This document shows positions 35,501 to 36,643 of a stretch of DNA of 64,000 bases, one piece after another; position 1 is the stretch's first letter; the number at the start of each line of letters is the position of its first letter. Origin of the DNA: Escherichia coli O157:H7 (GTDB lineage: Bacteria > Pseudomonadota > Gammaproteobacteria > Enterobacterales > Enterobacteriaceae); the NCBI RefSeq assembly GCF_013167455.1, contig NZ_CP038328.1; one strand, 5' to 3'. The position numbers were made by a program.

Positions 35501-36643
35501 CTGCTTATTGTATTTCTTCATACTACCTGGACAGGTCGTTAATCAGAATTGCGAGCCTGTACCACAACCTGCACGAAACCACTGCAACAGCTGTTGAAAA
35601 GCCGGAATGTACTCTTTATTGCAAACATTTCAGGGATGAAGTGAAGATGAATTGAGACGTAGTATCCACACCAAGCCGGCGTTATCCGGTGAGGCGCAAT
35701 GTTGCGGGGGTTTTATCCCTGGTGGCATTGGTTGCTGGAAAGAGAAAACCCCCGCACGTTGAGAGGTAAAACCTGACAACAGGGCTAATCTTGAAACCAG
35801 ACACTTCAAGAATAGCCGCAAAATGTTGTCATTACAACAAGGCGGCTATATGACGCTCGCGCAGTTTGCCATGACTTTCTGGCACGACCTGGCGGCACCG
35901 ATCCTGGCGGGAATTATTACCGCAGCGATTGTCGGCTGGTGGCGTAACCGGAAGTAAGGTGAAAACGGGCGTCAGGCTGCCGTGATGGCAATATGCGCCC
36001 GAAACCGGCCGCAGGGGTAACAGCCTGCGGCCATTTTTGTCTTTATCACTTCCACAAGTAAATATTGGCAACCCGAGCTGGAAGCATCATCCAGAGCACT
36101 CATGAAACGACTGTAACAGCTGTTGAAAAACCGGAATGCACTCTTCATTGCAAACATTTCAGGGATGAAGTGAAGATGAATTGAGTCGTAGTATCCACAC
36201 CAAGCCGGCGTTATCCGGTGAGGCGCAATGTTGCGGGGGCTTTATCCCTGGTGGCATTGGTTGCTGGAAAGAGAAAACCCCCGCACGTTGAGAGGTAAAA
36301 CCTGACAACAGAACGGGGGCTAATCTTGAACCATCAACAATTCAAGAATAGCCGCAAAATGTTGTCATTACAACAAGGCGGCTATATGACGCTCGCGCAG
36401 TTTGCCATGATTTTCTGGCACGACCTGGCAGCACCGATCCTGGCGGGAATTATTACCGCAGCGATTGTCGGCTGGTGGCGTAACCGGAAGTAAGGCGAAA
36501 ACGGGCGTCAGGCTGCCGTGATGGCAATATGCGCCCGAAACCGGCCGCAGGGTAACAGCCTGCGGCCTTTTTTGTATCCGGCACCCATGAAAAAAGTCTT
36601 AACGCAGAACGCTAAGACTTTATTTTTCAAGCAAAAAAGATTA

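What the first reader, a model, noticed from the sequence alone, without database searches (positions are those of the whole stretch)
35574..36575. Two tandem Ldr/Rdl type I toxin-antitoxin repeats not captured by the ORF track
Two copies of a roughly 529-bp unit each carry a 35-codon ORF (35850-35957 and 36386-36493) for a TM peptide with basic C-terminus WWRNRK, characteristic of Ldr toxins. Each has its own hairpin terminator and a plausible antisense promoter on the opposite strand just upstream of the start codon, where the Rdl antitoxin RNA would be expected. The copies differ by a T9I substitution and a 7-nt indel in the leader. I recall three tandem copies at this locus in K-12, so copy number appears to differ here. 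A long inverted repeat GCGGGGGTTTT...AAAACCCCCGC in each leader suggests extensive mRNA structure.
Basis: partly seen in the sequence, partly recalled or inferred. Interest (0 to 1): 0.45.

Follow-up and report, generated by a model that had tools for sequence, protein, structure and literature searches.

The report
Two known Ldr/Rdl toxin-antitoxin repeats
This is the well-known ldr/rdl small-toxin/antisense-RNA locus between chaA and kdsA of E. coli O157:H7, present as two tandem copies instead of the three in K-12. It is ordinary and already annotated, with one small lineage-specific quirk in the first antitoxin RNA.

Summary
The window is base-for-base E. coli O157:H7 EDL933 over the 1,601 nt checked. 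Between chaA and kdsA lie two about 475-bp LDR units that are 96% identical.

Each unit has:
- a 35-codon ldr gene (Pfam Ldr_toxin, E 3e-26; copy 1 is identical to K-12 LdrB, copy 2 differs by T9I);
- an intrinsic terminator;
- an antisense Rdl RNA above Rfam's threshold (66.6 and 83.6 bits; cut-off 50), starting about 48 nt upstream of the ldr ATG, with a promoter identical to K-12 rdlA/B/C.

A published EDL933 TSS map places a start within 1 nt of the predicted Rdl-2 5' end in all 9 conditions. K-12 has three units. RefSeq annotates both toxin genes, and Fozo et al. 2010 counted four Ldr-family genes in EDL933. The locus is already known.

Refinements:
- The "7-nt indel" is a 6-nt deletion inside the Rdl-1 stem plus a separate 1-nt indel.
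- The deletion occurs in about 300 of 5,424 matched records. All sampled carriers are O157:H7; the one O55:H7 genome examined lacks it. It cuts predicted Rdl-1 stability from -27 to -16 kcal/mol.
- Across 37 units from six genera, the ldr ribosome-binding site is sequestered by two conserved, mutually exclusive structures, as in hok.

Interest is low.

The parts
35569..36040 (+). LDR unit 1 (chaA-proximal)
   Evidence: Direct repeat families D1/D2/D4. 96% identical to unit 2. Its upstream flank matches the K-12 chaA-rdlC spacer, and its body and peptide match K-12 LDR-B.
36098..36575 (+). LDR unit 2 (kdsA-proximal)
   Evidence: It resembles K-12 LDR-A in its leader and downstream flank.
35850..35957 (+). 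ldr-1 toxin gene, 35 aa, identical to K-12 LdrB
   Evidence: Translation. Pfam PF13940 Ldr_toxin residues 1-35 of 35, E 3.3e-26. RefSeq WP_000170963.1 'type I toxin-antitoxin system toxin Ldr family protein'.
36386..36493 (+). ldr-2 toxin gene, 35 aa (T9I relative to ldr-1; S29G relative to K-12 LdrA/C)
   Evidence: RefSeq WP_000170954.1.
35743..35802 (-). Rdl-1 antitoxin RNA candidate, 60 nt, with a 6-nt deletion in the 5' arm of the long stem
   Evidence: Rfam RF01813 66.6 bits (GA 50), with 4 outer-stem pairs flagged as lost. MFE -15.6 kcal/mol, z -1.45. The promoter and first 21 nt are identical to K-12 rdlB/C. No TSS was found for it in the held, truncated EDL933 tables.
36272..36338 (-). 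Rdl-2 antitoxin RNA, 66-67 nt, canonical structure
   Evidence: Rfam RF01813 83.6 bits. MFE -27.3 kcal/mol, z -4.5. EDL933 Cappable-seq TSS 1800390(+) in 9 of 9 conditions maps to window 36338 on the minus strand.
35809..35837 (-). Rdl-1 promoter (-35 TTGTAA, 17-nt spacer, -10 TATTCT)
   Evidence: Read from the sequence. Identical to the K-12 rdlB/rdlC upstream 50 nt.
36345..36373 (-). Rdl-2 promoter (same hexamers)
   Evidence: A TSS was observed 7 nt downstream of the -10.
35660..35665 (+). TAGTAT box, probable -10 of the ldr-1 promoter (the unit 2 equivalent is at 36189-36194)
   Evidence: This is the 5' limit of cross-genus conservation, with TAnnAT invariant in 37 of 37 units. A start about 7 nt downstream gives an mRNA of about 369 nt. 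This is an inference. A K-12 5' UTR of 202 nt quoted in PMC10469882 would instead put the start near 35654/36183.
35703..35756 (+). Leader inverted repeat GCGGGGGUUUU...AAAACCCCCGC (the unit 2 equivalent is at 36232-36285)
   Evidence: I3, I4. The 3' arm is the complement of the Rdl terminator stem, so in intact units it can alternatively pair with the downstream CGGGGGC.
35781..35782 (.). Junction of the 6-nt deletion confined to O157:H7 among sampled carriers
   Evidence: Alignment with O55:H7, K-12 and unit 2. 297 of 5,424 records reach >=99% on a 120-nt probe, and all sampled ones are O157:H7. About 304 records by the second probe.
35823..35859 (+). ldr-1 translation initiation region that can pair with the 3' UTR at 35966-35994 (in unit 2, 36359-36395 pairs with 36502-36530)
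   Evidence: MFE of the full mRNAs. Duplex -48.6 kcal/mol against -31.3 +/- 4.1 for shuffled sequence. 29 pairs are 90% kept across 37 units, against 30-61% when slid, with 5 pairs changed on both sides.
35966..35999 (+). 3' UTR partner of the TIR, plus the UGCGCC clamp that pairs with GGCGCA at 35693-35698 (in unit 2, 36502-36535 pairs with 36222-36227)
   Evidence: (clamp invariant in 37 of 37).
35812..35849 (+). Local alternative: anti-SD AUAGCCGC (35812-19) pairs with GCGGCUAU (35842-49), enclosing the hairpin at 35825-38 (the unit 2 equivalent is 36348-36385)
   Evidence: RNAalifold consensus. 98.3% of cells paired. Hairpin pair 213:218 is C-G in 19 units and U-A in 16.
35791..35853 (+). 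Candidate leader ORF (ldrX-like). It starts at a TTG inside the Rdl target, and its stop overlaps the ldr-1 AUG (AUGA). In unit 2 the equivalent TTG at 36326 is in frame with ldr-2
   Evidence: The frame is not conserved among 37 units. This is inference only.
36007..36040 (+). ldr-1 intrinsic terminator
   Evidence: 9-bp stem with 8 GC pairs, followed by a T-run.
36543..36575 (+). ldr-2 intrinsic terminator
34351..35451 (+). chaA (upstream flank)
   Evidence: RefSeq annotation in identical O157:H7 records.
36641..37495 (-). kdsA (downstream flank)

Best explanation
The region holds two tandem copies of the chromosomal ldr/rdl type I toxin-antitoxin module (the 'long direct repeat', LDR) of E. 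coli O157:H7, at the chaA-kdsA locus where K-12 carries three copies.

Each unit is transcribed rightwards into an mRNA of about 370-390 nt. This mRNA has a 5' UTR of about 180-200 nt, a 35-codon ldr ORF for a small membrane-active toxic peptide, and an intrinsic terminator. A short Rdl RNA (60 and 67 nt) is transcribed leftwards from a promoter lying between its own start and the ldr ATG. It is fully complementary to the middle of the ldr 5' UTR, not to the ribosome-binding site.

Shown here:
- family membership of both the peptides and the RNAs;
- their conserved geometry;
- an identical Rdl promoter;
- a mapped TSS for Rdl-2.

Taken from the literature, for K-12 ldrD/rdlD only: LdrD overproduction kills cells, RdlD counteracts this, and the duplex is cut by RNase III.

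Inferred here:
- The full-length ldr mRNA is translationally closed. The SD/AUG is paired either with a local anti-SD (AUAGCCGC) or with the 3' UTR, and a GGCGCA:UGCGCC clamp joins the 5' and 3' ends.
- Rdl acts indirectly. It may block a leader reading frame that starts inside its target, and it triggers RNase III cleavage, as in hok/sok.

Unit 1 carries a 6-nt deletion, found only in O157:H7 among the genomes sampled, that weakens the Rdl-1 stem. Rdl-2 could cover for it by pairing with 59 of its 67 nt.
For: - The window is exactly identical to EDL933 and 100% identical to many O157:H7 genomes.
- Pfam Ldr_toxin matches the full length, E 3.3e-26, and ldr-1 is identical to K-12 LdrB.
- Rfam rdlD scores 83.6 and 66.6 bits, above GA 50.
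- K-12 is annotated with ldrA/B/C plus rdlA/B/C at the same locus.
- The Rdl promoter is identical to K-12.
- EDL933 TSS 1800390(+) in 9 of 9 conditions maps to window 36338(-).
- Rdl lies antisense about 49 nt upstream of the ATG in almost all of 30 loci from six genera.
- Terminators are present.
- Conserved mRNA structures are supported.
- Literature: toxicity of LdrD, repression by RdlD and the ldrX model (PMC4147584; PMC8167048); RNase III-cleaved ldrD-rdlD dsRNA (PMC7373196); 4 Ldr genes counted in EDL933 (PMC2887945).
Against: - Nothing contradicts the identification.
- NCBIfam gave no hit for the 35-aa peptides.
- The strict sigma-70 scan found no promoter, because the real boxes match only 8 of 12 positions.
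- No TSS for Rdl-1, or for the long ldr mRNAs, was found in the held (truncated) EDL933 tables.
- Toxicity and antisense control have been tested only for K-12 ldrD/rdlD and some homologues, not for these two copies.
- The mRNA fold-back model rests on prediction plus conservation. The structure was derived from one of the aligned sequences, and many of those sequences are closely related.
Confidence: 0.93

Rival explanations
1. Unit 1 is a decaying or partly defective module. The 6-nt deletion cripples Rdl-1 through a weaker stem-terminator and lower stability. On this view ldr-1 is kept silent only by its closed mRNA structure and/or by Rdl-2 acting in trans, so the locus effectively has one autonomous module plus a dependent one.
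For: - Rdl-1 MFE is -15.6 kcal/mol (z -1.45), against about -27 (z about -4.5 to -4.9) for Rdl-2 and K-12 rdlA/B/C.
- The CM alignment flags 4 lost stem pairs.
- Rdl-1 is the only 60-nt Rdl among about 45 hits of 65-67 nt.
- The deletion is derived: it is absent from O55:H7 DEC5B and from K-12.
- Strain LSU61 additionally lost 14 nt that include the ldr-1 SD.
- Rdl-2 can form 59 pairs with the ldr-1 leader (-102.7 kcal/mol).
- No Rdl-1 TSS was seen in the held EDL933 tables.
Against: - Rdl-1 still passes the Rfam threshold.
- Its promoter and 5' tail are intact and identical to K-12 rdlB/C.
- A terminator-like hairpin plus U-run remains.
- The ldr-1 ORF is intact and fixed in about 300 genomes.
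- The LSU61 lesion is private to one strain.
- The TSS tables were truncated, so the absence of a TSS is uninformative.
Confidence: 0.25
2. The repeats are merely non-functional intergenic repeat DNA, the short ORFs are chance, and there is no toxin-antitoxin function.
For: The ORFs are short. No strict-consensus promoter was found. NCBIfam gave no hit.
Against: - Full-length Pfam match.
- Two Rfam matches above threshold.
- The peptide, the Rdl and their spacing are conserved across six genera, with compensatory changes.
- A constitutive TSS lies at the Rdl-2 start.
- Toxicity has been shown experimentally for homologues.
Confidence: 0.02
3. The locus is a hok/sok-family module rather than ldr/rdl.
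For: Rfam 'sok' (RF01794) gives sub-threshold matches on the ldr leaders (27.0 and 21.8 bits). The gene organisation is hok-like (PMC3874152).
Against: The sok scores are far below GA 59. The peptide matches Ldr_toxin, not Hok. The literature states that ldr/rdl is not homologous to hok/sok.
Confidence: 0.01

Closest known systems
E. coli K-12 LDR-A/B/C (ldrA-rdlA, ldrB-rdlB, ldrC-rdlC) at chaA-kdsA
   Same: Same locus, flanks, unit architecture, Rdl promoter and terminators. ldr-1 is identical to LdrB. Rdl-2 matches the rdlA type at its 5' end.
   Different: There are two units instead of three. Unit 1 looks like a C/B chimera: the chaA-side flank and an A at the Rdl stem in O55:H7 resemble LDR-C, while the peptide resembles LdrB. 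ldr-2 carries G29 where LdrA/C have S29. Rdl-1 has a 6-nt stem deletion not seen in K-12.
E. coli K-12 ldrD/rdlD (the experimentally characterised member; Kawano et al. 2002)
   Same: 35-aa toxin of the same Pfam family, an antisense Rdl over the 5' UTR, and the same conserved mRNA elements.
   Different: It sits at a different chromosomal locus and belongs to the paralogous 'LdrD group', with 57% peptide identity. The experiments were done on D, not on these copies.
hok/sok of plasmid R1
   Same: Long structured toxin mRNA, an antisense RNA over the 5' UTR rather than the toxin RBS, a proposed leader ORF (mok/ldrX), 5'-3' end pairing, alternative SD-sequestering folds and RNase III cleavage.
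   Different: Not homologous in peptide or RNA (sok CM sub-threshold). The need for 3' processing has not been shown for ldr.
Fst/RNAII (par of pAD1), the Ldr/Fst superfamily
   Same: Homologous toxin superfamily, with a TM helix, a conserved W and a charged tail (PMC2887945).
   Different: The Fst antitoxins pair at the 3' end of the toxin mRNA, whereas Rdl pairs at the 5' UTR.

Membership tests
Ldr toxin (Pfam PF13940) | Full-length match to the family HMM | tested here: met
   Residues 1-35 match model positions 1-35 of 35, E 3.3e-26, 91.5 bits. ldr-2 differs by one residue. RefSeq names both as Ldr family toxins.
Ldr toxin (Pfam PF13940) | 35-aa peptide with a hydrophobic helix, a conserved Trp after it and a basic C-terminus | tested here: met
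   FWHDLAAPILAGIITAAIVGWWRNRK, read from the translation. These features are conserved in 37 homologues.
Ldr toxin (Pfam PF13940) | Overexpression is toxic | not testable with these tools
   Shown for K-12 LdrD and Salmonella LdrA homologues in the literature. ldr-1 has the same sequence as K-12 LdrB.
Rdl antitoxin RNA (Rfam RF01813) | Covariance-model score at or above the gathering threshold (50 bits) | tested here: met
   83.6 bits (36272-36337) and 66.6 bits (35743-35802), both on the minus strand.
Rdl antitoxin RNA (Rfam RF01813) | Encoded antisense to the ldr 5' UTR, with its 5' end about 49 nt upstream of the ldr ATG | tested here: met
   48 nt in both units. The same geometry holds in nearly all of 30 loci from six genera.
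Rdl antitoxin RNA (Rfam RF01813) | Long stem-loop (9 + 5 + 3 bp) followed by a U-run | tested here: met
   Rdl-2 meets it: -27.3 kcal/mol, z -4.5. Rdl-1 does not fully meet it: 4 of 9 outer pairs are lost, -15.6 kcal/mol, z -1.45.
Rdl antitoxin RNA (Rfam RF01813) | Actually transcribed from its own promoter | tested here: inconclusive
   Rdl-2: a published EDL933 TSS in 9 of 9 conditions maps to its 5' end. Rdl-1: the promoter is identical to K-12 rdlB/C, but no TSS was found in the truncated tables held.
LDR long direct repeat (Rudd 1999; Kawano 2002) | About 500-535-bp units in direct tandem between chaA and kdsA | tested here: met
   Spacing 529-536 nt, 96% identity, chaA and kdsA flanks.
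Type I toxin-antitoxin system | Antisense RNA represses toxin translation; stable mRNA and labile antitoxin | not testable with these tools
   Known only from K-12 ldrD/rdlD experiments.
hok/sok | Rfam sok/hok model at threshold and a Hok-family peptide | tested here: not met
   sok scores 27.0 and 21.8 bits against GA 59. The peptide is Ldr_toxin.

The most novel reading that the evidence does not exclude
Two modest things are not excluded.

(a) The 6-nt deletion, found only in O157:H7 among the genomes sampled, really does impair Rdl-1. If so, ldr-1 in about 300 sequenced O157:H7 genomes depends on the neighbouring Rdl-2 acting in trans, or on mRNA self-closure. That would be a natural case of antitoxin erosion buffered by a paralogue.

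(b) ldr mRNAs use a hok-like two-state lock on the ribosome-binding site. One state is a local anti-SD, the other a 3' UTR fold-back plus a 5'-3' clamp. The lock is conserved across six enterobacterial genera. I could not find it described in the held literature, where the mechanism is still called unconfirmed.
Probability: 0.3. Interest if true: 0.35.

Novelty: already known. Interest (0 to 1): 0.1.

Why it matters
It matters little. The result confirms that the first-stage reader can recognise a small unannotated-looking type I toxin-antitoxin pair from sequence alone. It also shows that this particular locus is a textbook one: it is already annotated in RefSeq for the toxin genes and was catalogued in EDL933 in 2010.

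The side observations could serve people who study type I TA regulation. The ldr/rdl mechanism is still described in reviews as 'thought to be hok-like, needs confirmation'. The conserved alternative structures and the natural Rdl-1 stem deletion give concrete, testable handles on it.

Tried and rejected
- NCBIfam search with both peptides: no family at E <= 0.01. I did not pursue this, because Pfam gave a clear answer.
- Strict sigma-70 scan: 0 promoters. The true Rdl promoter matches only 8 of 12 positions, and I identified it by identity to K-12 instead.
- Primary and review papers: Kawano 2012 (RNA Biol), Kawano 2002 (DNA Res) and Fozo 2008 (MMBR) are not held. I therefore cannot say whether the ldr mRNA fold-back has already been drawn there.
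- Rdl-1 and long ldr mRNA TSSs in the EDL933 supplementary tables: only Rdl-2 (1800390+), a weak sense TSS at 1800929- and an internal one at 1800310- were found. The antisense/orphan TSS tables are truncated before 1.8 Mb, so this is inconclusive.
- ldrX leader-ORF hypothesis tested on 37 units: a TTG about 60 nt upstream usually opens a frame that reaches the ldr start. However, the frame varies (+1, 0 or +2), and Klebsiella lacks the TTG. A conserved leader peptide is rejected. Translation through the region remains possible.
- hok/sok membership: rejected (sub-threshold CM).
- The idea that the LSU61 14-nt RBS deletion marks a clade-wide decay of unit 1: rejected, because it occurs in 1 record only.
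- The ldr mRNA 5' end is not settled. The conserved TAGTAT box predicts a start near 35672, whereas the K-12 5' UTR length of 202 nt quoted in PMC10469882 predicts a start near 35654.
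Full report
**Observation.**
Reading 35200-37200 shows chaA ending at 35451 and kdsA on the minus strand from 36641. Between them is a direct repeat.

- The repeat finder reports 278-nt and 216-nt families with start-to-start spacings of 529 and 536 nt, plus short pieces at 535 nt.
- A global alignment of 35569-36040 with 36098-36575 gives 453 identical of 470 aligned positions.
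- Each unit holds a 35-codon ORF, at 35850-35957 and 36386-36493. The mechanical ORF list shows them as 44- and 55-aa ORFs because of in-frame upstream starts.
- The two peptides differ only by T9I (ACT/ATT at 35875/36411).
- Each ORF is followed by a 9-bp, GC-rich hairpin and a T-run (36007-36032 and 36543-36567).

The one correction concerns the '7-nt indel'. It is a 6-nt deletion in unit 1 (between 35781 and 35782) plus a separate net 1-nt difference a few bases further on.

**Identity.**
The 1.2-kb region is 100% identical to many E. coli O157:H7 chromosomes. A 1,601-nt stretch of EDL933 is found exactly in the window.

- RefSeq annotates both ORFs as 'type I toxin-antitoxin system toxin Ldr family protein' (WP_000170963.1 and WP_000170954.1). 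It carries no RNA feature there.
- The peptide matches Pfam Ldr_toxin over all 35 residues (E 3.3e-26). NCBIfam gave nothing.
- ldr-1 is identical to K-12 LdrB. ldr-2 differs from LdrB by T9I and from LdrA/C by S29G.
- Rfam's rdlD model hits the minus strand at 36272-36337 (83.6 bits) and 35743-35802 (66.6 bits). Both are above the gathering score of 50, and they are the only such hits in the 64-kb window.
- In K-12 MG1655 the same chaA-kdsA interval is annotated with ldrA/rdlA, ldrB/rdlB and ldrC/rdlC.
- A 120-nt unit probe finds a median of 2 places per E. coli genome, with a range of 1-9. Two copies is thus a common state.
- Fozo et al. 2010 already list four Ldr/Fst-family genes for EDL933 (PMC2887945).

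**Antisense RNA and its promoter.**
On the minus strand, the 50 nt upstream of both predicted Rdl starts are identical to the regions upstream of K-12 rdlA/B/C. The promoter reads -35 TTGTAA, a 17-nt spacer, -10 TATTCT, then a G start 7 nt later. It matches 8 of 12 consensus positions, which is why the strict scan returned nothing.

A published Cappable-seq map of EDL933 lists a + strand TSS at 1800390 in all nine conditions (PMC10469882, supplementary file 6). By exact sequence mapping this is window 36338 on the minus strand, 1 nt from the Rfam 5' end and in register with K-12 rdlA. For Rdl-1 (expected at 1800926+), no TSS appears in the text held. However, the antisense and orphan TSS tables are truncated well before 1.8 Mb, so this is uninformative.

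**Conservation.**
One scan of species-representative genomes returned 30 Ldr loci. They come from Escherichia, Kluyvera, Pseudocitrobacter, Citrobacter, Klebsiella and Salmonella. In nearly all of them Rfam rdlD lies antisense, with its 5' end about 49 nt upstream of the ldr ATG, and is 65-67 nt long. The toxin/antitoxin geometry in the window (48 nt) is therefore the family norm.

**The Rdl-1 deletion.**
Unit 1 lacks 6 nt in the 5' arm of the long Rdl stem.

- The CM alignment marks four lost pairs.
- The predicted MFE falls to -15.6 kcal/mol (z -1.45). Rdl-2 and K-12 rdlA/B/C are at -26.7 to -27.3 (z -4.5 to -4.9).
- A 120-nt probe across the junction is >=99% identical in 297 of 5,424 matched records. 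All sampled carriers are O157:H7. A second probe gives about 304.
- O55:H7 DEC5B, from the sister lineage, has the intact stem. So do K-12 and unit 2. The deletion is therefore derived and, in this sample, confined to the O157:H7 lineage.
- It is the only 60-nt Rdl among about 45 Rdl hits.

Strain LSU61 has in addition lost 14 nt that include the ldr-1 SD, but this lesion is private to that genome.

Several things argue that Rdl-1 may still work. It keeps its promoter, its 5' tail and a terminator-like hairpin plus U-run. Rdl-2 can still form 59 pairs with the ldr-1 leader, at -102.7 kcal/mol against -121.4 for the cognate pair. Whether Rdl-1 is impaired is therefore open. I put it at about 0.25.

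**How the module probably works.**
Reviews state the following.
- LdrD overproduction is toxic, and RdlD co-expression relieves it.
- Rdl overlaps the 5' UTR, not the RBS.
- A leader ORF 'ldrX' was proposed by analogy with mok. This remains unconfirmed (PMC4147584; PMC8167048; PMC3874152).
- ldrD-rdlD forms dsRNA that is processed by RNase III (PMC7373196).

I looked at the mRNA itself. MFE folds of both window mRNAs pair the SD/AUG region with the 3' UTR, and the 5' GGCGCA with UGCGCC just before the terminator. The TIR:3' UTR duplex is -48.6 to -49.8 kcal/mol, against -31 to -32 +/- 4 for shuffled sequence. It is also present in the divergent LDR-D.

On an alignment of 37 units from six genera (A4), RNAalifold returns:
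- a 5' hairpin with a compensatory pair (G-C in 17 units, A-U in 14);
- the 5'-3' clamp, invariant in 37 of 37;
- the mirror image of the Rdl hairpin;
- a local anti-SD helix AUAGCCGC:GCGGCUAU, enclosing a hairpin whose closing pair is C-G in 19 units and U-A in 16.

Counting pairs gives these results.
- The local model is 98.3% paired, against 24-59% when slid.
- The long-range TIR:3' UTR model (29 pairs) is 90.0% paired, against 30-61% when slid. Five pairs change on both sides, and 0 of 500 shuffles reach its covariation score.

The two models use the same TIR nucleotides, so they are alternatives. Both hide the SD. This is the hok logic, and it fits the 'stable but untranslated mRNA' described for ldrD.

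Caveats apply. The long-range structure was derived from one member of the alignment. Many sequences are closely related. Invariant pairs say nothing either way. I could not read the primary papers to see whether this fold has been published.

**Leader ORF.**
A TTG about 60 nt upstream of the ATG, inside the Rdl target, opens a frame that reaches the ldr start in most units. The frame varies, though.
- In unit 1 it is 35791-35853, and its stop overlaps the start codon (AUGA).
- In unit 2 the 1-nt indel puts the TTG (36326) in frame with ldr-2.
- Klebsiella units lack the TTG altogether.

A conserved leader peptide is therefore not supported. Coupling through the act of translation remains possible.

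**The 5' end of the ldr mRNA.**
Cross-genus conservation begins abruptly at a TAGTAT/TAGAAT box (35660-35665 and 36189-36194), with TAnnAT invariant. If this is the -10, the mRNA is about 369-375 nt. The EDL933 paper quotes a 202-nt 5' UTR for K-12 ldrB and only a weak TSS at -51 for EDL933 ldr-1, seen in 1 of 9 conditions. The exact start remains unsettled.

**Verdict.**
The feature is an already known, already catalogued type I toxin-antitoxin locus. Interest is low (0.1). The residual novelty lies in the Rdl-1 stem deletion seen only in O157:H7 genomes and in the conserved dual SD-sequestering structures. Both are hypotheses that need wet-lab tests.

Noticed in passing
window 18875-19609 (+): Two tRNA-Tyr(GTA) genes (18875-18959 and 19169-19253) are interleaved with three RtT repeat elements (19004-19134, 19300-19431, 19478-19609; 118-134 bits). 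This is the known tyrT-tyrV/rttR locus.
   Followed up: no
L004 (O157:H7 LSU61) about 1070-1091, equivalent to window 35829-35842: LSU61 unit 1 carries the 6-nt Rdl deletion plus a private 14-nt deletion (CATTACAACAAGGC). The second deletion removes half of the pre-SD hairpin and the ldr-1 SD. It is found in 1 of 5,425 records.
   Followed up: yes
window 35799 (+) and 36418 (+): The EDL933 Cappable-seq tables list weak sense-strand TSSs, each seen in 1 of 9 conditions. One is 51 nt upstream of ldr-1, giving a transcript that would lack almost the whole Rdl target. The other lies inside the ldr-2 ORF. Their significance is unknown.
   Followed up: partly
window 35706-35852 and 36235-36388 (+): The Rfam 'sok' model (RF01794) gives sub-threshold matches (21.8 and 27.0 bits; GA 59) on the ldr leaders. 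This reflects a hok-like layout, not membership.
   Followed up: partly
L011 1201-1305 (Pseudocitrobacter vendiensis): This ldr homologue has a premature stop (W30*), while its antisense Rdl is intact (85 bits). It is a toxin pseudogene with the antitoxin retained.
   Followed up: no
L025 (503-bp contig labelled Bacillus sp., coverage 0.66): The contig carries an LdrD-type gene and an Rdl scoring 90.4 bits, like Escherichia. It is almost certainly enterobacterial contamination of that assembly.
   Followed up: no
L003 about 2100 (O55:H7 DEC5B unit 2): One extra G in the G-run of the Rdl stem (GAACGGGGGGC). Together with the 6-nt deletion, this suggests the G-run is an indel hotspot.
   Followed up: no
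window 36590-36624: A 15-nt inverted repeat (AAAAAAGTCTTAACG/CGCTAAGACTTTATT) lies between the ldr-2 terminator and the kdsA stop. It is probably the kdsA terminator on the minus strand.
   Followed up: no
window 34264-35451: The mechanical ORF for chaA starts 87 nt upstream of the RefSeq start (34351). This is only the longest-ORF convention, not a discrepancy in the sequence.
   Followed up: no
L023, L024, L026-L028 (Klebsiella): The Klebsiella Ldr homologues carry LWDDLAAP or LWEDLAAP in place of FWHDLAAP, and a 5-8-nt insertion in the leader loop. Their Rdl still passes the Rfam threshold where one was detected. L026 gave no Rdl hit at gathering.
   Followed up: no
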